A stretch of 37,272 bases of DNA. It comes from a virus (Duplodnaviria > Heunggongvirae > Uroviricota > Caudoviricetes). Positions within the stretch are counted from its first letter, which is position 1. The number at the start of each line of letters is the position of its first letter. The position numbers were made by a program, and so were the translations under genes. The DNA lies in the IMG/VR virus record IMGVR_UViG_2917403263_000004, positions 1-37,272 of that record. One strand, 5' to 3'. Positions 3,930 to 34,791 of the stretch are shown one piece after another. The notes beneath the pieces were generated by a model. That model worked only from the letters and a program-made list of their open reading frames with translations, had not been told where the DNA came from and did no database searches.

Positions 3930-4498
3930 TCTGCCTTGCCCACCTGAAATGCGCGAATTTCTGCGAGATTATTCAGTTTAGTCAGTGTGTTTTTCATCTC
4001 CCGCTGGCGCAGATAAATCTCATTGTTGCGGGTAACCTGTGCCTGAACCATTGCCGTCAGCAGTTCGTCCAGTTGCTGCACGGAGAGTTTCACCTGGCGG
4101 TTGTTCGCGTCGTTCCATGTCATAACGCTTCGTGCCGTGTCAGATTTTGCCAGCATCACCACCGGAGACAATCTGTCCACTGAAACAGGGCCGGCATCCC
4201 AGATTCGCTTTTTCCATTCGAATGTGAACGACCGCGCTTCCTGTTCTGTGCGCCATGCTTCAATTTCCCGACGCTTGGCTGTTTTTGCTGCTTCCAGTAT
4301 TTCCGGTGTCACAGTGAACGGAGCTATCTCCCCCCATTTACCGCTTTGCAGTTCCTGCCAGATTTTCTGGCCTGTTGGCGCCGTATCATCTGCCGTCGCT
4401 GTATACGGCAGTGCTTCGCCCATTCCCTCGAGCAGTACGTCACAGTCAATTGCACCACTTTCGATATAACGGGCGTTTTCGATTTTTTTTATTTTCAT
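3926..4498 (-). CDS. Tail fibre assembly / chaperone protein (cassette 2)
   Basis: 190 aa immediately downstream of tail fibre 2. Size and position are typical of Tfa/gpG-type fibre chaperones. AGGTGAT RBS. Confidence 0.55.
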   Translation of the reverse strand: MKIKKIENARYIESGAIDCDVLLEGMGEALPYTATADDTAPTGQKIWQELQSGKWGEIAPFTVTPEILEAAKTAKRREIEAWRTEQEARSFTFEWKKRIWDAGPVSVDRLSPVVMLAKSDTARSVMTWNDANNRQVKLSVQQLDELLTAMVQAQVTRNNEIYLRQREMKNTLTKLNNLAEIRAFQVGKAE

Positions 4499-7114: not shown

Positions 7115-8773
7115 TTACATACTCGCTACGTTATACCAGGTTCCATTAATCAGTTTCTGAAGGGGGCGGATAAACCACCCGTCGGCAGAGTTATCCCAGT
7201 CTCCGTAGCAGTAGCCACCCACACTGACATAACCCGGGGGAGCCAGGTTTGAGCCTGTACTGCCCATCTGTTGATAACCGCCAAGACGCATATCCTGTAC
7301 TCCCATTTTATTTTGCAGGTAAGATGACAGCCATCCTCCCCATGTGCTGCCGTACACGTTACCGTCAGCCGCAAGCCTTGCAGAGCCGTTGCCTGACTGT
7401 AATTCACCTGTTGCGACACTATTTCCATGCACCAGTGAACCGCCACCGGTGGTCACTTTGTGTGACATGGCAATATCACCAGTCCGCAGGTTAATTGAGA
7501 AAGGACGCAGAGGGCCAATATTGCCATTTTCACCCTGTCCTTCCGTGGTGGGGATAAGATGAAGGCTGTCTTCTGAGCGACGAAAAATCAGACCAAAGGC
7601 GCCATCGAAAATCCTCAGCGCATTAACGTCACGAATTTTCAGTTCCCCGGTCATGGTATCGCCACCTCGCTGAACGGCGCCTTCTGCCTTATCAACGGTG
7701 GGCTTTAGTCCGACGTTTTCAATAAACAGTGGTTTGTCGGGGATGTCGCTGCCGTTGCGATTTTTCGCAAGGCGGGCATTTGCGTTATCCATTGCGATTT
7801 TTACCGCTTTTGACGTGGCGGCACGGTCTTCTGCATCACTGTCAGTGGCGTTACTGTACTGAGCGAATCCTTTTTCGTTCAGTGTGGCATCCGGGTGCCT
7901 GCGGGATTTTTCGTGTTCTGCCAGTGCATTGCTTTGTTCTTCGTCGGGTGTCTCCGGACGTAAATCCTGTGAGCCGTCTGCTGTCAGTTTTGCAAGCGGT
8001 GCAACAAAATGCCGAAAGCCATTCCCGTCTGTGTAGGATGCATGTTCCGGGCGGGCGCTGAATGTGAAAACCGTATTCCATTCGCCAGTAACAAATCCCT
8101 GCCAGCTTGCATCAATCCAGATGGTGTCCCCGACCGTTGCGCGCAGGCTGTAAGGTTCGCGCAGACTGACGCGCAAACCTCCCACATAACCAATCCCCGC
8201 GGCAACAATGGCGGTGCCGTTCTGATAGCTCACCTGAAAACCGTCCTCCAGAAAAGCGGCTTCACCGTAGTGATCAAACGCCAGCAGTCTGCGGGCTTCA
8301 TCCATTCCCGCCAGGCGGGCAGTGAAATCAATCTGCCAGACATCAGCACTGACATCGATATGCATCGCTGCTGCCGCACCGTCAAACTCCATGGAAAACG
8401 TGCGGATCAGATTGTTTCCCTGTACACCGTTCGCGGTTTTAATTTTTTGCTGGCAGGGGGTGTGCGCAATCATACAGAGCACGCCGCTTTCTTCGTTCAG
8501 CAGGCCAATCCAGTTGTATTCGAAGTCGCCGATTGTGGTATCCAGAATGATGGAAAATGCGGTTGCATTCGGTGACAGGAGACCGTACTGGGTGACCGGT
8601 GCGCGATACTGGATCAGGGTTTCATCAGGGAGCGTTTCGTCGCGGGGGATCTCTGCAGACTCATCCAGTCCCGGAATATATGCAAAAACAAATGTATCCG
8701 GGCGCGCAGGTTTCCCGCTGATGATCTGATTTGCGCACCAGTGTTCGTATTGTTCAGTAATAATCGTACTCAT
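7115..8773 (-). CDS. Tail fibre protein 1
   Basis: 552 aa. Contains AEHEKSRRHPDATLNEKGFAQYSNATDSDAEDRAATSKAVK, matching the conserved P2 gpH / T4 gp37-type fibre motif (AEHEQSRRHPDASLTAKGF...). ATGA overlap with the upstream baseplate gene. Confidence 0.75.
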   Translation of the reverse strand: MSTIITEQYEHWCANQIISGKPARPDTFVFAYIPGLDESAEIPRDETLPDETLIQYRAPVTQYGLLSPNATAFSIILDTTIGDFEYNWIGLLNEESGVLCMIAHTPCQQKIKTANGVQGNNLIRTFSMEFDGAAAAMHIDVSADVWQIDFTARLAGMDEARRLLAFDHYGEAAFLEDGFQVSYQNGTAIVAAGIGYVGGLRVSLREPYSLRATVGDTIWIDASWQGFVTGEWNTVFTFSARPEHASYTDGNGFRHFVAPLAKLTADGSQDLRPETPDEEQSNALAEHEKSRRHPDATLNEKGFAQYSNATDSDAEDRAATSKAVKIAMDNANARLAKNRNGSDIPDKPLFIENVGLKPTVDKAEGAVQRGGDTMTGELKIRDVNALRIFDGAFGLIFRRSEDSLHLIPTTEGQGENGNIGPLRPFSINLRTGDIAMSHKVTTGGGSLVHGNSVATGELQSGNGSARLAADGNVYGSTWGGWLSSYLQNKMGVQDMRLGGYQQMGSTGSNLAPPGYVSVGGYCYGDWDNSADGWFIRPLQKLINGTWYNVASM

Positions 8774-17143: not shown

Positions 17144-17638
17144 TTAATCAATCAGCGCGACAGAGGCGCGCGGTCTGCCCAGCAGCGCACGCACCGCCAT
17201 GGCCGCTTCAGCCAGCAACGTCCGGCGGCTCTCGCTGGCTTCTGATGATGGCTGCGCTTCGCGCCGCCCCACACTGGCAGATTCCGGCAAAAGATCGGCC
17301 TTTGCGCGCGCATACACAGCCTTGGTGTACAGTGCTGTAATGTGGTTCTGCATCCGTTCTGATTGTGCATCCGTATTGCGCGGCTCTGGTTGCAACACGG
17401 TGTAACCCGGAATATCAGCAGCCCGGATGTGGCCCTGTTCCTGCCAGTATTCACGGCGCGCAGCCAGTTCAGTGTTAATCTCTGTTACCGCGCAAAGCAG
17501 CGCCGTCAGCACCGTTTCGTGTGACGTGACGGCGGGGATGCTGCGGCTCTTTTCAAAATCGCCGGCATTAATATCCGGCCAGAATCCATCGTTCTGAATA
17601 ATGGCCTGCTGATAGTGAATGCTTTTCCCGTCAAACAT
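17144..17638 (-). CDS. Head completion/stabilisation protein (gpL-like)
   Basis: Start taken at ATG 17638 (GGAGTG RBS); the track ORF starts at a GTG at 17701. Contains GFWPDI, typical of gpL. About 164 aa (P2 gpL is 169 aa). Confidence 0.6.
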   Translation of the reverse strand: MFDGKSIHYQQAIIQNDGFWPDINAGDFEKSRSIPAVTSHETVLTALLCAVTEINTELAARREYWQEQGHIRAADIPGYTVLQPEPRNTDAQSERMQNHITALYTKAVYARAKADLLPESASVGRREAQPSSEASESRRTLLAEAAMAVRALLGRPRASVALID

Positions 17639-25635: not shown

Positions 25636-26595
25636 TTACTCCTTGTCCATTGCGTACAGCCCATTAACCAGAGCAAACTGTGGCACCCCATCCGCGATGA
25701 AAGTCGCATTAACTCCGCAGGCTTCGCGGATAGCGGGTGCCACAATCTCCGCCCCGCCACCGACAACCATCACCCGCCCGTAACCCGAAAAACCCGCCAG
25801 CGCGCGGATCACGCGTTGTTTCAGTGTTTCCTCCTTTTCACGAATAACCGCCATCAGGCTGCCGTAATGCGCGTCATTGTGGATGTGCTGGCGCAGCCAG
25901 GCTTCATCATGGCGATGTTCGATAATGGTATTGGCGATGTGGTGACTGGTGCGCATACCGTTAGTGGCCATCACCGACAGTACGGCATCGGCCATCAGAG
26001 AAACGCCTACGTGTGGATCGCAAAACACCTGGCTGATACCTGCCAGTTGCCCCTGAACCTTTGCCACATCCAGCGTGGTTCCGCCCAAATCCACAATCAG
26101 CAGGGATTCAAACGGACTCATGTCAGCCAGTGCCTTAAAGCCAGCCGGAATGGATTCAGGCATAACCCGTACGTTACGGATAGTGAATGCTTCGCTGTTC
26201 TGGTACTCCACCGGGCGCATGACGTTCGCTTTTTTGCGGTTGATGTTGGCCATGTCCGGCTGTGCGTTTGTATCGAAATACTCGCTCAGTGGCAGGGTGA
26301 CAACCACATCCACTTCCTGTGGTGGGATGCCTGATTTGACCAGCGCGTGATGAATGGCAATGACATTCACATCACTGTACTGATATTGCGTGTCGGTCGT
26401 CTGGACAAAGCGATCGCTGACCGAATCAAAACCATAGCGCACACCATCAAGCATGTAGTTCGCGGGCTGCGTGCCACCGAACGGCGCAGACCATTCCGAC
26501 TTGAAGCTGTTCGGGCTGATGGCGTTGCGGCGTTCGCCGTTCTCAGTCCATGCCAGCTTGATGTTGGTGGAGCCGTCGTCGATACAAATTTTCAT
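25636..26595 (-). CDS. parM: ParM/StbA-family actin-like plasmid segregation ATPase
   Basis: 319 aa. N-terminus MKICIDDGSTNIKLAW...ISPNSFKSEW...QYSDVNVIAIHHALVKSGIP closely parallels R1 ParM (MLVFIDDGSTNIKLQW...ISPNSFKREW...[20 protein letters not shown], recalled from memory). Confidence 0.85.
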   Translation of the reverse strand: MKICIDDGSTNIKLAWTENGERRNAISPNSFKSEWSAPFGGTQPANYMLDGVRYGFDSVSDRFVQTTDTQYQYSDVNVIAIHHALVKSGIPPQEVDVVVTLPLSEYFDTNAQPDMANINRKKANVMRPVEYQNSEAFTIRNVRVMPESIPAGFKALADMSPFESLLIVDLGGTTLDVAKVQGQLAGISQVFCDPHVGVSLMADAVLSVMATNGMRTSHHIANTIIEHRHDEAWLRQHIHNDAHYGSLMAVIREKEETLKQRVIRALAGFSGYGRVMVVGGGAEIVAPAIREACGVNATFIADGVPQFALVNGLYAMDKE

Positions 26596-26623: not shown

Positions 26624-26738
26624 CCGTTTACGGGATTTTTAAATCCCGCTTTCGCCTGTTTTGTGCGCGCTTCATATATCGCGGCGCGTTTTTTGCTCAT
26701 TTACGGGTTTTGTGAATCCCGTTTCTGTCTGTTTTTTG
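26624..26738. repeat. parC-like centromere: two roughly 42-bp direct repeats, each containing an 18-bp palindrome
   Basis: CCGTTTACGGGATTTTTAAATCCCGCTTTCGCCTGTTTTGTG and TCATTTACGGGTTTTGTGAATCCCGTTTCTGTCTGTTTTTTG. Palindromes at 26631..26648 and 26704..26721, 73 bp centre to centre, immediately upstream of parM. Confidence 0.55.
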
Positions 26739-26846
26739 TTTCCACTGGTCAGGCTACCCCGCAGCAGGTCTGCTTTGCGGCGGGCGCGTTCAGTGGTTTC
26801 ACTGATTCTCTGTGCGTGCTCTGCGTCACGGATGGCGCGCAGCATG

Positions 26847-29326
26847 TCAGAAAGCACGGTAACAGGGGTTTTCATGGTGTTCTGGTCCTGCTGAAGTGTG
26901 GATGCCAGGCGTGCGGCGGCTTCGGGGTCTCGATGCCCCCAGCTGTTCCAGATAGCTGGCGACCGGGTTATGGCGGATCTCCGTGCTGCTTACGCCGTGA
27001 TTACGGCTCAGGCGCTGCCAGAGCTGCGTGATTCGGCTGTCCGGGCGGGTATCCGGTTTGCGTACAATTTCAAATCCCTGCGGTGCAATGATGCTGCCGT
27101 CAACGTACAGACTGCCGCCCCGTAACAGGTGCTGCATCTGCTGTTCACCGATATGCAGGCCGAGAGATTCAGCAGACTCCCGCCATTCTTTAGCGAGTAA
27201 CTCATGGTTATCAGGCAAAGGCCACGGTGTTGGCCGTTCTTTCGGCTGTTCTGTCCCGTTGTTGTCCGTTTCCTGTACATGGGGACAGTTATTGCCACGA
27301 GTCCAAGGGGCGGCAGGGCCGCCCTGAAGGTCAAAACCATTTTCGCGGGCGCTGTCTTCCGCTTCCGGTTTACGTCTTACCAGCTTCCAGTTATCCGGGT
27401 GCGTGCACACGCGGGAAGATTCCCCGATGAGCGGCGACCAGATCCCGTAAATCTGTACACTCTGCTCGCCGTAATCGTTCAGCTCATCTGCGAGGTCGTA
27501 GGCGGTGCGAATCAGGTAGTCTTTACGTGGAACAAGTACGCCGCCCTGTTTTTCAATGTAGGAGGCAAAACACCCGGCATCGGCGGCAGCGAGTACCGCA
27601 TCCATTGCGTCATCCTTCAGCCGTTGCGGGCCTTCCGGGTTGCGTGCCATCTGGCTGGCAAGGCGGCGCAGTTCACGCCATACCTGACGGGAGGGGATGC
27701 CAAAGAACTGGAACTGGCGGACCCGATGAAGGCGCGCCCAGCCGATGGCGCGCTCCACGCTCTCGGCCATTGATTTTCCGGTTTCGTGGTCAACGCGTGG
27801 TTTGCCCGTTTTCGGATCGATTCCATCCACGGCGCGGCTGTCCAGGTTTTTTCCGATGTAGGTGGCGATGTAGCTGGTTGGCGTGCCTTTGGAGCCGTCG
27901 ACGTACTCCACCTTAAAGCGCGGAGTAATATCATTGCCCAGCTCGTGGCGGTCTTCCTGAATGGCAATATCGCGGGTGATGGCCACGATGCTGTCGATTT
28001 CTTCCGGATGAGCAAAGACCATCATATGCCAGTGCACGGTGCCGTCATGGTGAGGCTCCACCGTGCGGATGCCATACCAGCGCAGGCCGTCGCGGTTCAG
28101 TTTTTGCGGACCGCCGCAAAAAACGTGTTAACCAGGTAATCGCTGGAGTCGCGCATGGTGGCCCCGTTCCATTTGGGATTCGGATGACCGTTCTCTGTTG
28201 TGGCGTGGTATTTTGACGGGCAGGTGACAGTCAGAAACACCGCTTTGTCGCCACGGGCTTCGGCCAGAAGTTCCAGTCCCTTCATGGTGGCCATCATTTC
28301 TGCCTTACGGTGAACCGGGTTACTTACTCCCGCGTAATACACTGTCTCGAGATCAATCGTGAAGCCGTCTTCGTTTTCCAGTTCGAAGCTCTTCAGGAAG
28401 TCGCGGGTTTTCTCGCGCTGTGCGCGAAACTCGCTTAACGCGTCCTGGCTCAGATAGGGTGATGTTTTTCTGGAAACCAGACAGGCGGCGCGGAGTTGTT
28501 CTTCTCTCCACTCGCAACGTAACAGCCACAGTTTGCGTTTCCACCAGTCCGCACAGGTCAGGCGGAGGATTGCGCCCGGCAGCAGTTCCGTATCCGGATC
28601 GCTCTTGTTCAGGGCTTCGTAATGTGGCGGCATGATGTGCAGGCGTAATGCGATACGAGCCAGCATCCGGTAAGCCTTCAACATTACATCCATGGTCAGC
28701 TCGCCATCTCTGGCACCAAAGCCATCGCAGAGTGTTTCGAAGGTGCTGCTGAACATCGCCGCGGTCATGGTGGCCAGCGTCTGTATCTGGTGCTTGTTGA
28801 GCTGCGGCAGGTAAAGCAAATCGTCCAGGCGTTCGCGCCCGGCAAGGGAGCGATAACCCGGTGTCAGCCAGCGTCCGTCAGTGCGATCCAGACGTTCGAA
28901 TATTTTGCGCAGGGTTCCGCGTGCATAGCGTTCCGCCTGCCAGCTCTTTTTGCCTTTCTGGCGATCGGCTTCCTGTTTTTTGCGCAGGAAGGAGAGGTGG
29001 CGAATAAGCGGATCGCGCAGATAGGACGGCAGCAGGCGCAGCGAGGCCATGGCTTCATCCACCGCGCCGCGTGCCTGCTTTCTGGCGTCTCCTGCCAGTG
29101 TGATGGTTTTGTCCTGTTTTTCCTGTGCGTCCAGGCTTTTATTAATCAGGTTGCCCAGCGGCGTGGCGGAGAACGCCGCATCAGCCATTTCCTGGCGGCG
29201 CTCGTTCTCTACCCGGTAGGCATCCAGCCAGGAGGAAAGCGCGGATTCAGGAGCGGGGATCCCCGTTCCTTCACGCCCCACTGCGTGGCGCGGTTGTTGC
29301 CAGTCCCTGATGTACTCTGCCGTCAT
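26847..29326 (-). pseudogene. Replication initiation protein gpA (rolling-circle HUH endonuclease), split by a 1-nt frameshift
   Basis: Two track ORFs (28097..29326 and 26847..28061) in different frames. The C-terminal part carries HUH and catalytic-Tyr motifs (GTVHWHMMVFAHPEE, YIATYIGK). The frames join if one A is added to the minus-strand A5 run (plus T5 at 28101..28105): ...FFAAVRKK-LNRDGLRWYGIRTVEPHHDG. Confidence 0.7.
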
Positions 29327-29332
29327 AGTGAT

Positions 29333-29698
29333 TTACTTCGTCATGCCATTCAGGGTGTCGCGGCAGACTGTAGCCAGCCGCTGAATTTCCAGCACGGTGT
29401 CTTCTGTGTCGGCATGGCGATGTGTGATGCGGATGCTGTCGGCAATCACATCGACGATTGCAGAGGATGGGTGCTGGTAAATGCCAATAACGGACGGGGT
29501 GCCACCTTCAATGCGGTAAAGCCTGTAATTTCCCTCGTGGCTGTCAATCATGTAGCGACCATCAATAACAATCTTTCCATCAGCGAGCTGCGGTACAGGC
29601 AGGGATTTCAGGTACATGTCATAACGATCACGCACGCGAGCGGCAAGATCACGTTCTGTGTTGAGCAGGTATTCAAGAAAGTCGTTGGCGAGAATCAT
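29333..29698 (-). CDS. Hypothetical early protein (121 aa)
   Basis: ORF ending 7 nt before the gpA start. Confidence 0.45.
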   Translation of the reverse strand: MILANDFLEYLLNTERDLAARVRDRYDMYLKSLPVPQLADGKIVIDGRYMIDSHEGNYRLYRIEGGTPSVIGIYQHPSSAIVDVIADSIRITHRHADTEDTVLEIQRLATVCRDTLNGMTK

Positions 29699-29770
29699 TG
29701 CGGCAATCCTCTTGTTACAGATGTGCGAAGGCCTCCCGCCGCAAGGTGCAGGAAAGGCCCGGAACAGTAA

Positions 29771-30001
29771 TTAATGGAGTTTGTTTTGCTGCTGGATGAG
29801 CTGCTGAAGCTCGCGCAGATCATCCGCCAGATAGCTGAAAACAGAGGCGGAATAGCTGTTCGATAGTGCGTGACTGCGCTCATGCAGCATATTGATGTGC
29901 ATGATTTGCGCGACGCGTGATGCGCGGAAAAGTCTGCGGTTGATTTCAGTCTGGATGTGACGACGCTCCGCGATAGCGCGGTGCTGTTTGCGGTTTGCCA
30001 T
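29771..30001 (-). CDS. Hypothetical small basic protein (76 aa)
   Basis: First ORF after the iteron-rich non-coding region. Arg-rich N-terminus. Confidence 0.45.
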   Translation of the reverse strand: MANRKQHRAIAERRHIQTEINRRLFRASRVAQIMHINMLHERSHALSNSYSASVFSYLADDLRELQQLIQQQNKLH

Positions 30002-30011
30002 GGTGTGGCCT

Positions 30012-30235
30012 CTGTAGTTGCAAGTTTTGAAAACTCACCATCCAGAGGTTGCAATTCTGGGTGGTGAGGCGTACGGGGTTGCAACCACCGGCAACTACAG
30101 AAACCGGCCCGACCGAAGTCGGCCCCATACGCCCCACCATAATTCGTGTGCGAAAAAGACGTGGCGATACGGTACGCACAAAAAAACCGCTGGCGCGGTT
30201 GTGCGCTGTAGTTGTCAGCGGGGGTTGCAATCCCG
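30012..30235. repeat. Cluster of short repeats (CTGTAGTTG and GGTTGCAA motifs) in a 320-bp non-coding region
   Basis: CTGTAGTTG at 30012 and 30206, with the inverse GCAACTACAG at 30091..30100. GGTTGCAA at 30047, 30077 (perfect palindrome GGTTGCAACC) and 30222. Confidence 0.5.
30181..30200 (-). terminator. Putative terminator after the upstream early genes
   Basis: On the minus strand, ACCGCGCCAGCGGT hairpin followed by T7, nested inside an outer CGCACA/TGTGCG inverted repeat. Confidence 0.4.
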
Positions 30236-30321
30236 ACACCCGTTTTATGAGGTGCAGCGGAAATGTAACCTGACTGATTGCGGCATGGCAAGCGGTTTTT
30301 TTGTGTGTGCATGATGATTAC

Positions 30322-30882
30322 TCAGTTTGGTAATAGCTCGTACAGCACGGCGTCGGCGGCGGTGCGGCGACCGTAAAGAAAACGTGCTGTGCGAGTGGTG
30401 ACTTTTATTTGCAGTGTGTGATTAATGTGTTTTGCTATCATGGCGAACGTCATGTGTTGCTCATCATGTAGTTCAGTCACCAGTTCCACCAGGTGATCGC
30501 TGTATCTGGTCAGGTGGTGGAGTTCTCCACATTTTCGCAGGCTGTAACCACGTTTTTTCAGGTGCACTTGTACTGTGCGACGGGTGCATCCCATCTCGGT
30601 GGCCAGTTCCTTCGCCGTTCTGGTGCGGCGGTTTTCGATGAGAAAGGCGATCTCCTTTGCACTCAGTGTCTTTTTTTTGCGACCAATCAATCCACGGCCA
30701 CGTAAAAAACTAAGTCGGTGCATAACGGCGTCATGGGTTCGTTGAATTCGTTCAGTTATCTGGCGCGTGTTGTGCTCCGGATAAAGCGAGATAAGCATTT
30801 CATCTTCCCATTGTGCCCATGGCTTTACATGTGCCGGAGCCACGCCTGGTGTACCCATTGGTTTGAGTTTGAATTTGTGCAT
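30322..30882 (-). CDS. Putative HTH DNA-binding protein (186 aa)
   Basis: C-terminal half has a helix-turn-helix-like segment (TAKELATEMGCTRRTVQVHLKKRGYS). No family assigned. Confidence 0.5.
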   Translation of the reverse strand: MHKFKLKPMGTPGVAPAHVKPWAQWEDEMLISLYPEHNTRQITERIQRTHDAVMHRLSFLRGRGLIGRKKKTLSAKEIAFLIENRRTRTAKELATEMGCTRRTVQVHLKKRGYSLRKCGELHHLTRYSDHLVELVTELHDEQHMTFAMIAKHINHTLQIKVTTRTARFLYGRRTAADAVLYELLPN

Positions 30883-34449: not shown

Positions 34450-34791
34450 ATGGTGAACATGTCAAGAGATTACGCCAAAAAACTAAAGGCAATCAGAAAC
34501 GCGGAAAAACTTACACAATCTCAGTTTTCGCAAGTAACAGGGGTTTCTGTAGGGACTATAGGAAATTATGAGTCTGGATATAAACCTGCGCGAATTGAGG
34601 TTGTAGAAAAAGTAATCCAAGTCGAGCGATTCGAAAAATACACTATGTGGATACTTCACGACAAAACATTTCCCGCTGCCGGGCAGGTTGCCCCGGCTCT
34701 CTCTCTTGATGGCTCTATTCAGTCGGAGGGCGATCAGGTTTCAATCGGCATTACCCAAAAATCACCCCGATCAGGCCGCAATGTTGGCTGA
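34450..34791 (+). CDS. Immunity repressor (P2 C-like)
   Basis: MVNMSRDYAKKLKAIRNAEKLTQSQFSQVTGVSVGTIGNYESG ... FEKYTMWILHDKTFPAAGQVAPALSLDG parallels P2 C (recalled: ...QQLADLTGVPYGTLSYYESG...FTKYTLWFMTNQIAPESGQIAPALAHFG). Start set at internal ATG 34450. Confidence 0.75.
   Translation: MVNMSRDYAKKLKAIRNAEKLTQSQFSQVTGVSVGTIGNYESGYKPARIEVVEKVIQVERFEKYTMWILHDKTFPAAGQVAPALSLDGSIQSEGDQVSIGITQKSPRSGRNVG

What the first reader, a model, noticed from the sequence alone, without database searches (positions are those of the whole stretch)
30002..30321. Iteron-rich 320-bp non-coding region inside the early region
Between two minus-strand genes lies a region with at least three copies of CTGTAGTTG (one inverted), three or four copies of GGTTGCAA including a perfect palindrome GGTTGCAACC, a UUCG-type hairpin at about 30105-30127, and a terminator-like hairpin with T7 for the upstream minus-strand operon. 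This looks like a regulator binding array, a secondary origin, or an operon boundary where gpA expression is controlled separately. A plus-strand T7 run at about 30294-30302 leaves open a small plus-strand transcript.
Basis: seen in the sequence. Interest (0 to 1): 0.55.

Follow-up and report, generated by a model that had tools for sequence, protein, structure and literature searches.

The report
Antisense-RNA immunity switch in P2-like prophage
The "iterons" are the matching recognition sequences of a known kind of phage small-RNA switch (the IsrK/seqA plus C4/CI system of phages P4, P1 and N15), which here sits inside a P2-like prophage just ahead of an anti-repressor gene and the replication gene.

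Summary
The repeats are real, but they are not protein-binding iterons or an origin. On the minus strand, Rfam finds two full-length RNA genes above threshold. One is an isrK/P4-seqA-type leader RNA (30255..30180) with its own terminator. The other is a C4/P4-CI-type antisense RNA (30144..30057).

CTGTAGTTG is loop a' of C4, and its complements are a1 (in the leader) and a2 (over the Shine-Dalgarno of the next ORF). GGTTGCAA is b', with complements b1 and b2.

Across about 190 near-identical P88-like loci, a'/a1/a2 and b'/b1/b2 change together. I found at least 16 a types, 6 b types and 30 combinations. Cognate duplexes are about 6-8 kcal/mol more stable than non-cognate ones.

The controlled genes are a 76-aa homologue of the P4 epsilon derepression protein, a 121-aa ORF and gpA. 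This is the same logic as the P4 left operon.

A 205-codon ORF spans the whole module. It stays open in 104 of 105 distinct sequences and is coupled to the genes on both sides, like P4 Eta.

Verdict: a new member of a known kind, in an undescribed setting. P2 and 186 lack it. About 21% of complete E. coli genomes carry it.

The parts
29695..30312 (-). Spanning ORF of 205 codons (Eta-like). Its ATG (30312..30310) lies 9 nt after the stop of the 186-aa gene and upstream of the internal promoter. Its stop TGA overlaps the ATG of orf121 (ATGA, 29698..29695). It covers the epsilon-like ORF in the +1 frame.
   Evidence: ORF list. Open in 82/84 loci and in 104/105 distinct sequences. Polymorphic stop positions: 13 and 10 in the other two frames, against 2 singletons in this frame. 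No Pfam hit in the window; the sibling ORF in P884B11 hits PF10554 Phage_ASH at 26.5 bits.
30296..30302 (-). A7 tract (T7 on the plus strand) just upstream of the -35 hexamer. Possibly an UP-element-like tract.
   Evidence: Sequence. A7 in 83 of 84 related loci (one has A6), although the DNA further upstream differs. The UP-element role is inference.
30262..30291 (-). Sigma-70 promoter-like site internal to the spanning ORF: TTGCCA, 18-nt spacer, TACATT. It ends 7 nt before the start of the Rfam isrK model.
   Evidence: 9/12 match. The -10 is invariant and the -35 nearly invariant in 84 loci. Activity was not tested.
30180..30255 (-). isrK / P4-seqA-type leader RNA: hairpin 1, hairpin 2 carrying b1 in its loop, a1, then an intrinsic terminator with U7.
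   Evidence: Rfam RF01394, 57.8 bits (gathering score 50), full length. Fold.
30223..30230 (-). b1 (RNA UUGCAACC), complementary to b' of C4.
   Evidence: four of eight pairs show changes on both sides.
30206..30214 (-). a1 (RNA CAACUACAG), complementary to a' of C4.
   Evidence: 100% of cells paired; 7 of 9 pairs with changes on both sides.
30180..30200 (-). Intrinsic terminator of the leader RNA (stem AACCGC/GCGGUU, loop GCCA, then the U-run). Positional counterpart of P4 t1.
   Evidence: It is part of the Rfam isrK model. The t1 equivalence is by position and from my own knowledge of P4.
30145..30179 (-). Spacer with a weak GUGCG/CGCAC hairpin between the leader terminator and C4.
   Evidence: -7 kcal/mol, z -1.85; weak.
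30057..30144 (-). C4 / P4-CI-type antisense RNA: a long basal stem, a UUCG-capped hairpin, the a' hairpin, and the single-stranded b' junction.
   Evidence: Rfam RF01695, 82.1 bits (gathering score 45), full length. The minimum-energy fold equals the Rfam structure: -49.9 kcal/mol, z -5.05.
30109..30122 (-).
30091..30101 (-). a' (RNA UCUGUAGUUGC) in the loop of the second inner hairpin of C4.
   Evidence: (I9: 11/11 complementary to 30011-30021).
30077..30086 (-). b' (RNA GGUUGCAACC), single-stranded junction of C4.
30029..30068 (-). Post-C4 hairpin. The 3' arm of the C4 basal stem (CUCACCACCCAGA) pairs with UCUGGAUGGUGAG, with b2 in the 9-nt loop, followed by UUUUC. It is an alternative to the C4 basal stem and looks like a terminator. 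Probable counterpart of P4 t4.
   Evidence: I6. (-17.6 kcal/mol, z -4.92). Predicted in 13/16 diverse loci, with compensatory arm changes in P4, N15 and NAR688. The t4 equivalence is inference.
30047..30054 (-). b2 (RNA UUGCAACC), downstream target of b'.
30011..30021 (-). a2 (RNA GCAACUACAGA), downstream target of a'. It overlaps the Shine-Dalgarno AGAGG (30013..30009), which lies 7 nt before the ATG at 30001.
   Evidence: Duplex of 12 bp, -17.6 kcal/mol.
29771..30001 (-). 76-aa ORF of the P4 epsilon (derepression protein) family. It is the first gene under a2/b2 control.
   Evidence: Pfam PF25738, 30.2 bits (cut-off 27). 29% identity to P4 epsilon, E 6e-8. Variable sites by codon position: 35/34/59.
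29333..29698 (-). 121-aa ORF of unknown function, start-coupled to the spanning ORF by an ATGA overlap.
   Evidence: no family hit. Conserved in P88 and relatives.
26672..29326 (-). gpA replication endonuclease (P2 A family), the last known cargo of the controlled unit. In this window it is interrupted by two single-base indels.
   Evidence: Pfam PF05840 on both halves. Comparison with the 940-aa P88 gpA.

Best explanation
The region is an RNA-based gene switch of the IsrK/seqA plus C4/CI type, read on the minus strand and embedded in the early operon of a P88-like (Xuanwuvirus, P2-family) prophage.

Proposed pathway:
1. A promoter inside a spanning ORF starts a transcript at about 30255.
2. 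The first 76 nt form a leader RNA that carries b1 and a1 and ends at its own terminator.
3. Read-through transcripts contain the 88-nt C4-type RNA, which displays a' in a hairpin loop and b' in a single-stranded junction.
4. a' and b' pair with b2 (in the loop of a terminator-like hairpin just after C4) and with a2 (over the Shine-Dalgarno of the epsilon-like ORF).
5. This pairing blocks translation of the epsilon-like ORF. By analogy with P4 and P1, it also favours premature termination. The anti-repressor homologue, orf121 and gpA therefore stay off when only the internal promoter is active, that is, in the lysogen. A superinfecting phage of the same a/b type would be held down in trans.
6. 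The leader's a1/b1 compete for the same loops. This would either feed back on C4 synthesis (P4 model) or act as a decoy that releases translation (Gifsy-1 IsrK model).
7. When transcription comes from the early promoter upstream, ribosomes pass from the 186-aa gene into the spanning ORF, translate straight through the module and hand over to orf121 and gpA. This overrides the RNA structures, as Eta does in P4.

Shown here: the identity and fold of both RNAs; three-way complementarity with covariation; the overlap of a2 with the ribosome-binding site; the family assignment of the downstream genes; conservation of the open frame and of its coupling.

Inferred: promoter activity; processing of C4; repression and termination; action in trans; the override by translation; and that the epsilon-like protein inactivates the prophage's P2 C-type repressor.
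For: - Two Rfam hits above gathering score, both full length, in tandem. The same tandem is present in all 15 comparison loci, including P4 itself, where the hits fall on the CI and seqA regions.
- C4 alone folds into the Rfam structure, z -5.05. The whole leader folds with z -4.34.
- a'/a2 and b'/b2: 90.3% of cells paired, 101 cells changed on both sides, covariation score 0.589 against at most 0.158 for slid controls, 0/500 shuffles as high.
- a'/a1 and b'/b1: 95.8% paired, 104 cells changed on both sides, 0.670 against at most 0.152.
- Twenty-four combinations among 84 loci whose epsilon proteins are at least 89% identical, and 30 in a wider set.
- Cognate against non-cognate duplex energies: -14.7 vs -6.3 kcal/mol (a'-a2), -13.9 vs -7.1 (b'-b2), -12.3 vs -4.5 (a'-a1), -16.7 vs -11.0 (b'-b1).
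- a2 overlaps the Shine-Dalgarno of the 76-aa ORF.
- The 76-aa ORF is in Pfam PF25738 and is 29% identical to P4 epsilon. gpA is PF05840. The gene order matches P4: seqA, CI, seqC, epsilon, further ORFs, replication gene.
- The prophage repressor is of the P2 C family, E 1e-21.
- The spanning ORF is open in 104/105 distinct sequences, and its start and stop are coupled to the neighbouring genes. Spanning ORFs occur in the loci where the module lies inside an operon (P4, lambdoid phages, yong2) and not where it stands alone.
- The P4 and Gifsy-1 mechanisms are as summarised in PMC10111431, PMC4825925 and PMC3632133.
Against: - No transcript, processing or binding data exist for this element.
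- The promoter call is a 9/12 consensus match, and the number of such sites in the region is no higher than in shuffles.
- The post-C4 hairpin has a 9-nt loop and only four U, so it may be a weak terminator. The scan did not list it.
- The epsilon-like ORF is not nested in frame in the spanning ORF as kil is in eta.
- The window's spanning ORF has lost the Phage_ASH reading frame.
- gpA looks interrupted in this prophage, so the switch may no longer matter to this particular element.
- The covariation set consists of close relatives with recombined variants, so the cell counts overstate the number of independent events.
- Co-resident copies differ in 4 of 4 clear cases, but that number is too small to show trans-immunity.
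Confidence: 0.85

Rival explanations
1. Activation logic, as described for Gifsy-1 IsrK, rather than trans-repression. On this reading the C4-like part acts mainly in cis as an inhibitory fold of the long transcript. The short leader RNA (a1/b1) acts in trans on that transcript to open the ribosome-binding site. High leader-RNA levels would then switch on the epsilon-like anti-repressor and induce the prophage.
For: The leader matches Rfam isrK. In the predicted fold of the whole leader, a1/b1 pair in cis with a'/b'. The b'-b1 duplex is the strongest of the four in the window, -21.2 kcal/mol. In Gifsy-1, IsrK in trans activates translation of orf45-anrP and induces the prophage (PMC4825925). 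The downstream gene here is also an anti-repressor homologue.
Against: It is not exclusive of the main model. In P4 the same parts give repression and immunity (PMC10111431, PMC3632133). The perfect 12-bp a'-a2 duplex over the ribosome-binding site and the diversification of specificity types fit a trans-acting immunity RNA more naturally.
Confidence: 0.3
2. The module is an intact-looking relic with no present function, because the prophage in this window is defective.
For: gpA carries two frame-shifting single-base indels and two in-frame deletions relative to P88.
Against: All six recognition elements are still mutually complementary: a'-a2 12/12 bp, both RNAs full length and above Rfam thresholds. 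The spanning ORF is open. Both indels lie in homopolymer runs and may be sequencing errors. The same module is kept in the active phages P88 and phiSM.
Confidence: 0.1
3. The region is chiefly protein-coding (an Ash/Eta-type regulatory protein), and the RNA matches are incidental.
For: A 205-codon ORF spans the region and is annotated as a 'transcriptional regulator' or as Ash-like in some records. Pfam PF10554 matches sibling ORFs.
Against: The window's own spanning ORF has no Pfam hit, because a +1/-1 indel pair in b1 and b2 changes its frame over about 57 codons, yet it remains open. The peptide is poorly conserved where it overlaps the epsilon-like ORF: 62 of 75 columns vary there, against 46 of 76 in the epsilon frame. 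The variable positions are exactly the paired RNA positions. PF10554 covers just the stretch that encodes the two RNAs.
Confidence: 0.03
4. Iterons bound by a DNA-binding protein (the 186-aa HTH protein or gpA), forming a regulator array or a secondary origin.
For: There are several short repeats within 250 bp next to an HTH gene and upstream of the replication gene. Concerted change of all copies could in principle also follow a change in a protein's specificity.
Against: Copies are in opposite orientation exactly as RNA pairing demands, and they tolerate G-U but few other mismatches. The HTH gene is absent from P88 and P884B11, which keep the module. Identical epsilon or orf121 proteins accompany 3-4 different specificities. 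The region has 57-62% G+C in the two RNAs, with no AT-rich stretch. The P2 origin is a nick site inside gene A.
Confidence: 0.02

Closest known systems
Satellite phage P4 immunity: promoter PLE, seqA leader with terminator t1, CI RNA (seqB), seqC with t4/timm, the nested eta/kil genes, then epsilon, orf151, orf106 and alpha
   Same: Both Rfam models hit P4 at the expected places. The order is the same: leader, antisense RNA, target, epsilon-family gene, further ORFs, replication gene. There is an internal promoter inside a spanning ORF that is coupled to the upstream gene (P4 as summarised in PMC10111431). A post-CI hairpin with seqC/b2 in its loop is shared, with compensatory changes.
   Different: The replication gene is P2-type gpA, not the alpha primase-helicase. 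The spacer between leader and antisense RNA is 35 nt here and 107 nt in P4. The first controlled ORF is the epsilon-like gene itself, and it is out of frame with the spanning ORF, whereas in P4 kil is nested in frame in eta. orf121 is unrelated to orf151. The host element is a full P2-like phage with its own C/Cox switch, not a satellite.
Phage P1/P7 immI: c4 antisense RNA, icd, ant
   Same: Same Rfam family, named after these phages. Two recognition elements a'/b' with upstream a1/b1 and downstream a2/b2. The downstream target covers a ribosome-binding site and the cargo is an anti-repressor. Small differences in the loops give hetero-immunity (own knowledge of the P1/P7 literature).
   Different: The cargo anti-repressor belongs to a different family (epsilon-like, not Ant). 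A replication gene is in the same unit. P1 itself was not fetched or compared here.
Salmonella Gifsy-1 isrK, orf45 (STnc1160), anrP
   Same: The leader matches the isrK model. A C4-like RNA and an anti-repressor gene lie downstream. The short RNA and the long read-through RNA share a promoter (PMC4825925).
   Different: In Gifsy-1 the short RNA was shown to activate translation in trans. The cargo is a Rha/Ant-type anti-repressor feeding into AntQ. The host is a lambdoid prophage. No replication gene is in the unit.
Phage N15 anti-immunity locus (small processed CA RNA controlling the anti-repressor operon)
   Same: N15 carries the same isrK plus C4 tandem. Its b' (GUUGAGAAC) is identical to the commonest P88-like b' type.
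   Different: It is a stand-alone locus with no spanning ORF and has different cargo genes. The mechanism in N15 is from my own knowledge, not re-read here.

Membership tests
Rfam RF01695 C4 antisense RNA (P1/P7 c4, P4 CI) | Covariance-model score at or above the gathering score, full length | tested here: met
   82.1 bits against 45, model positions 1-87 of 87
Rfam RF01695 C4 antisense RNA (P1/P7 c4, P4 CI) | Fold with a long basal stem, two inner hairpins, a' in a loop and b' in a single-stranded junction | tested here: met
   The minimum-energy fold equals the Rfam consensus: -49.9 kcal/mol, z -5.05
Rfam RF01695 C4 antisense RNA (P1/P7 c4, P4 CI) | a'/b' complementary to one pair of sites upstream and one pair downstream on the same transcript | tested here: met
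   Complementary in the window and co-varying over 25 distinct sequences
Rfam RF01695 C4 antisense RNA (P1/P7 c4, P4 CI) | Downstream target overlaps the ribosome-binding site of the first ORF | tested here: met
   a2 at 30021..30011 overlaps AGAGG at 30013..30009, which lies 7 nt before the ATG at 30001
Rfam RF01695 C4 antisense RNA (P1/P7 c4, P4 CI) | Mature RNA cut out of a longer transcript (RNase P at the 5' end) | not testable with these tools
   Needs RNA end mapping
Rfam RF01695 C4 antisense RNA (P1/P7 c4, P4 CI) | Acts in trans as a type-specific immunity factor | tested here: inconclusive
   Four clear co-resident pairs all differ in type, but 41% of such outcomes are expected by chance
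Rfam RF01394 isrK / P4 seqA leader RNA | Covariance-model score at or above the gathering score, full length | tested here: met
   57.8 bits against 50, model positions 1-77 of 77
Rfam RF01394 isrK / P4 seqA leader RNA | Own promoter directly upstream | tested here: inconclusive
   TTGCCA-18-TACATT ends 7 nt before the model start and is nearly invariant in 84 loci. It is only a consensus match and activity is untested
Rfam RF01394 isrK / P4 seqA leader RNA | Intrinsic terminator at the 3' end | tested here: met
   Stem 30200..30185 plus the U-run
Rfam RF01394 isrK / P4 seqA leader RNA | Hfq binding | not testable with these tools
   Needs co-immunoprecipitation
P4-type left-operon architecture (Eta/Kil) | Spanning ORF that starts upstream of the internal promoter and is coupled to the upstream gene | tested here: met
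   ATG at 30312, 9 nt after the stop of the 186-aa gene. Open in 104/105 distinct sequences
P4-type left-operon architecture (Eta/Kil) | Spanning ORF belongs to Pfam PF10554 Phage_ASH | tested here: not met
   No hit for the window's ORF. A different frame gives 21.6 bits, below the cut-off of 26. The sibling in P884B11 gives 26.5 bits and P4 Eta 82.2 bits
P4-type left-operon architecture (Eta/Kil) | First controlled ORF nested in frame in the spanning ORF (as kil is in eta) | tested here: not met
   The epsilon-like ORF is in another frame
P4-type left-operon architecture (Eta/Kil) | Epsilon (derepression) gene downstream | tested here: met
   PF25738 at 30.2 bits (cut-off 27); 29% identity to P4 epsilon, E 6e-8
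P4-type left-operon architecture (Eta/Kil) | Alpha primase-helicase as the replication gene | tested here: not met
   The replication gene is gpA, PF05840
Iteron array / replication origin | Repeats in one orientation with regular spacing, bound by a cognate protein encoded nearby | tested here: not met
   Mixed orientation and irregular spacing. No co-varying neighbouring protein. The upstream HTH gene is not conserved with the module
Iteron array / replication origin | Supports replication | not testable with these tools
   In P2 the origin is a nick site inside gene A.

The most novel reading that the evidence does not exclude
P88-like P2-family phages carry a second, RNA-based immunity layer of the P4 type.
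- It gates their own epsilon-like anti-repressor and gpA.
- Its specificity is a two-part code (at least 16 a types and 6 b types) that is reshuffled between otherwise near-identical phages.
- It is bypassed during lytic growth by a spanning ORF kept open only so that ribosomes run through the RNA genes.

If so, the immunity-plus-derepression module of satellite P4 is shared with a lineage of its potential helper phages. Matching or mismatching RNA types could then decide which co-resident P2-like prophages and P4-like satellites silence each other.
Probability: 0.45. Interest if true: 0.55.

Novelty: new member of a known kind. Interest (0 to 1): 0.33.

Why it matters
The RNA families and their logic are already known from P4, P1/P7, N15, Gifsy-1 and lambdoid prophages. 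The core finding is therefore explained rather than new.

Four things I did not find described in the papers searched:
- The setting. The module lies inside the early operon of a very common group of P2-like prophages: 1134 of 5426 complete E. coli genomes carry it. P2 and 186 themselves lack it.
- The cargo. It controls a homologue of P4 epsilon plus the P2-type replication gene.
- The spread of recognition types among near-identical phages.
- An open reading frame kept open across the RNA genes even where its peptide changes.

This gives a ready natural set of matched and mismatched RNA pairs for testing RNA-based hetero-immunity. It also adds a second link between P4-like satellites and P2-like phages, where PMC8628076 reported only delta/ogr.

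It has a practical consequence for annotation. The records looked at here label this stretch as 'Ash family protein', 'transcriptional regulator' or a hypothetical protein. Pfam PF10554 is in effect the translation of the two RNA genes.

Tried and rejected
- LexA boxes. I searched for them as a possible SOS input to the internal promoter. There are only two CTGT-N8-ACAG sites in the window, both far away at 4173 and 27273.
- orf121 against P4 orf151: no similarity. NCBIfam gave nothing for the 76-aa and 121-aa ORFs.
- Pfam on the window's spanning ORF and on the plus-strand 98-aa ORF: no hits.
- The genome-contig scan with the 76-aa protein gave only 3 loci, so the comparative set rests mainly on IMG/VR contigs and GenBank phages.
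- Test of trans-immunity through co-resident copies. Only five genomes had two contigs. One pair looks like a split assembly, and the other four differ in type. That is too few to count. The E. coli genome search reports only the best place per record, so the multi-copy genomes (up to 5 places) could not be examined.
- The primary P4 papers (Sabbattini 1995, Forti 1999, Briani 2000) are not in the held library. Statements on P4 t1/t4/timm come from my own knowledge plus the summaries in PMC10111431, PMC4825925 and PMC3632133.
- I rejected a plus-strand small transcript ending at the T7 run. The scan shows no hairpin before it on that strand, and the tract is better explained as part of the conserved minus-strand promoter region.
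Full report
**1.

CTGTAGTTG is at 30012 and 30206 on the plus strand and inverted at 30092. It occurs nowhere else in the window. Chance expectation is 0.17, and 0 of 100 shuffles gave three matches.

GGTTGCAA is at 30047, 30077 and 30223. The copy at 30077-30086 is part of the palindrome GGTTGCAACC. There is one unrelated copy at 17388. The whole-window count is unremarkable, but the clustering is not.

The UUCG hairpin, the hairpin plus T7 on the minus strand, and the plus-strand T7 run are all present.

**2. What the region is**

A scan of the whole window against Rfam gives exactly two hits. Both are on the minus strand, both lie inside the finding, and both are full length.
- C4 antisense RNA (RF01695): 30144..30057, 82.1 bits against a gathering score of 45.
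- isrK (RF01394): 30255..30180, 57.8 bits against 50.

The repeats fall at defined places in these RNAs.
- In C4, CUGUAGUUG lies in the loop of the second inner hairpin (a').
- GGUUGCAACC lies in the single-stranded junction (b').
- The UUCG hairpin is the first inner hairpin.
- C4 alone folds into this shape: -49.9 kcal/mol, z -5.05.
- The leader RNA carries UUGCAACC (b1) in a hairpin loop, then CAACUACAG (a1).
- Downstream of C4, UUGCAACC (b2) sits in the 9-nt loop of a strong hairpin (30068..30034; -17.6 kcal/mol, z -4.92) followed by UUUUC.
- GCAACUACAGA (a2) overlaps the Shine-Dalgarno AGAGG, 7 nt before the ATG of the 76-aa ORF.

The 'iterons' are therefore one antisense RNA's two recognition elements plus two sets of targets.

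**3. The surroundings**

The window is a P88-like (Xuanwuvirus, Peduoviridae) prophage next to serS. The gene order on the minus strand is:
- a 186-aa HTH gene;
- the RNA module;
- a 76-aa ORF in the Pfam 'Derepression' family (PF25738), 29% identical to P4 epsilon;
- a 121-aa ORF with no family hit;
- gpA (PF05840);
- ParM.

The prophage repressor is of the P2 C family.

Similarity to P88 stops at about 30305, just upstream of the A7 tract and the -35 hexamer. The gene upstream of that point differs between sister phages. The unit therefore runs from the promoter to gpA.

**4. Related sequences**

All 15 comparison loci carry the same isrK plus C4 tandem. They include P88, three relatives, Stx and other lambdoid phages, ST64B, cdtI, N15 and Klebsiella, Yersinia and Hafnia phages. 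They also include P4 itself, where the hits lie on the CI RNA and the seqA leader. P4's order is leader, CI, target, epsilon, orf151, orf106, alpha, which is the same logic as here. P2 and 186 have no hit.

[quoted passage not shown] Hershko-Shalev et al. call IsrK a structural homologue of P4 seqA RNA (PMC4825925). One GenBank phage record annotates both RNAs.

**5. Test of the pairing**

Eighty-three further loci encode the 76-aa protein at 89% identity or more, and all have the module. Among them there are 24 combinations of the six elements. A wider set of about 190 loci gives 30 combinations, with at least 16 a types and 6 b types. In every case a1 and a2 follow a', and b1 and b2 follow b'.

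Pair counts on 25 distinct sequences:

| Pairing | Cells paired | Cells changed on both sides | Covariation score | Best slid control | Shuffles as high |
|---|---|---|---|---|---|
| C4 loops vs a2/b2 | 90.3% | 101 | 0.589 | 0.158 | 0/500 |
| C4 loops vs a1/b1 | 95.8% | 104 | 0.670 | 0.152 | 0/500 |

Cognate duplexes are far more stable than non-cognate ones. For a'-a2 the means are -14.7 against -6.3 kcal/mol.

These sequences are close relatives with recombined variants, so the cell counts overstate the number of independent events. The number of distinct types and the slid controls do not depend on that.

Identical epsilon or orf121 proteins occur with 3-4 different types, so no neighbouring protein tracks the repeats.

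**6.

A 205-codon ORF (30312..29695) spans the module.
- Its ATG lies 9 nt after the stop of the 186-aa gene and upstream of the internal promoter.
- Its stop overlaps the ATG of orf121 (ATGA), and orf121 ends 6 nt before gpA.
- The frame is free of stops in 104 of 105 distinct sequences.
- The other two frames carry 13 and 10 polymorphic stop positions, against 2 singletons in this frame.
- In the window, a +1 indel in b1 and a -1 indel in b2 put about 57 codons in a different frame from the sister phages, yet the ORF stays open.
- Over the epsilon-like gene, variable sites fall 35/34/59 by epsilon codon position. The spanning-frame peptide varies in 62 of 75 columns there. Epsilon is therefore the frame under protein-level selection, and the spanning frame seems to be kept only open.

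Spanning ORFs are also present in P4 (Eta), in lambdoid phages where the module follows cII, and in phage yong2. They are absent where the module stands alone.

Pfam PF10554 Phage_ASH matches exactly the stretch of these ORFs that encodes the two RNAs.

In P4, translation of Eta from an upstream promoter prevents termination, while transcripts from the promoter internal to eta are terminated through CI and seqA (PMC10111431).

**7. Most likely mechanism**

- In the lysogen, the internal promoter makes the short leader RNA. By read-through it also makes C4.
- C4 pairs with b2 and a2. This blocks the ribosome-binding site of the epsilon-like gene and favours termination at or after the post-C4 hairpin.
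- The anti-repressor homologue, orf121 and gpA therefore stay off, and a same-type superinfecting phage is restrained.
- The leader's a1/b1 compete for C4. This acts either as feedback (P4) or as an activating decoy (Gifsy-1).
- From the early promoter, coupled translation through the spanning ORF overrides the structures and delivers ribosomes to orf121 and gpA.

The anatomy, the pairing and the gene families are shown here. Promoter activity, processing, repression, action in trans, the translational override and the target of the epsilon-like protein are inferred.

**8. Rival explanations**

- A protein-binding array or an origin is very unlikely. The orientation and the G-U pattern fit RNA pairing. 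No protein co-varies with the repeats. The HTH gene is not conserved with the module. The P2 origin lies inside gene A.
- The Gifsy-1 style of activation remains a live alternative for the role of the leader RNA.
- The module may be idle in this particular prophage, because gpA carries two single-base indels. Both are in homopolymer runs and may be sequencing errors.

**9. Novelty**

The kind is known, and both RNAs are found by a routine Rfam scan. I did not find the following described in the papers searched:
- the module's presence in P2-like phages;
- an epsilon homologue and gpA as its cargo;
- the breadth of recognition types;
- the frame-independent conservation of the spanning ORF.

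PMC8628076 states that delta is the only P4-specific gene with clear homologues in P2-like phages. The epsilon-like gene and the RNA module in P88-like phages add to that.

The module is common: 1134 of 5426 complete E. coli genomes carry it.

I rate it a new member of a known kind, of modest interest.

Noticed in passing
window 26672-29326 (-): gpA differs from the 940-aa P88 gpA in four ways. There are in-frame deletions of 15 and 153 nt. There are also two single-base indels, in an A5 run near 28106 and a G5 run near 26931, which put about 400 middle codons out of frame. This is either a pseudogene or homopolymer sequencing error.
   Followed up: partly
window 29946-30239 (-); L015:8171-8812 (-); L006:1146-2297; L014:1241-1924; L004:1502-2119: Pfam PF10554 'Ash protein family' matches just the part of these ORFs that encodes the isrK and C4 RNAs (P4 Eta 82 bits). 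The family is in effect a translation of two RNA genes. A published survey of P4-like satellites (PMC8628076) used it as the marker for epsilon, whereas P4 epsilon itself belongs to PF25738.
   Followed up: partly
window 29695-29698, 29326-29335 and 30310-30324: There is a chain of close gene junctions across the module. The stop of the 186-aa gene lies 9 nt before the spanning-ORF ATG. The spanning-ORF stop and the orf121 start overlap as ATGA. The orf121 stop lies 6 nt before the gpA ATG. This suggests coupled translation from the early operon into gpA.
   Followed up: partly
window 34459-34791 (+): The prophage repressor is of the P2 C family (33% identity, E 1e-21) but is only 33% identical to the P88 C protein. 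This prophage therefore differs from P88 in protein immunity as well as in the b element of the RNA module.
   Followed up: partly
window 25636-26595 (-): A ParM-type plasmid segregation gene lies just downstream of gpA, as in P88. This is unusual for an integrated P2-like prophage.
   Followed up: no
L097 (NZ_JBQPOM010000071.1, labelled Vagococcus sp.): A contig assigned to a Gram-positive genus carries a P88-like module and an epsilon-like gene at 91% identity. This is probably contamination or a mislabelled assembly.
   Followed up: no
L011 (N15) 1573-1660; L012 (Klebsiella phage NAR688) 1554-1641; L015 (P4) 8420-8507: Recognition elements are shared across unrelated elements. The N15 b' equals the commonest P88-like b' type, and the NAR688 b' equals the P4 b'. 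The a' elements differ. This hints that both elements are needed for specificity, or that the parts are exchanged.
   Followed up: no
L008 (Yersinia phage vB_YpM_39) 151-449 (-): A full-length ryfA RNA hit (134.6 bits) lies about 1 kb upstream of that phage's isrK-C4 module.
   Followed up: no
E. coli complete genomes: Some genomes hold up to five copies of the module. The RefSeq annotation under the listed matches shows only proteins ('derepression protein', 'DNA-binding protein', 'hypothetical protein') and no RNA gene.
   Followed up: no
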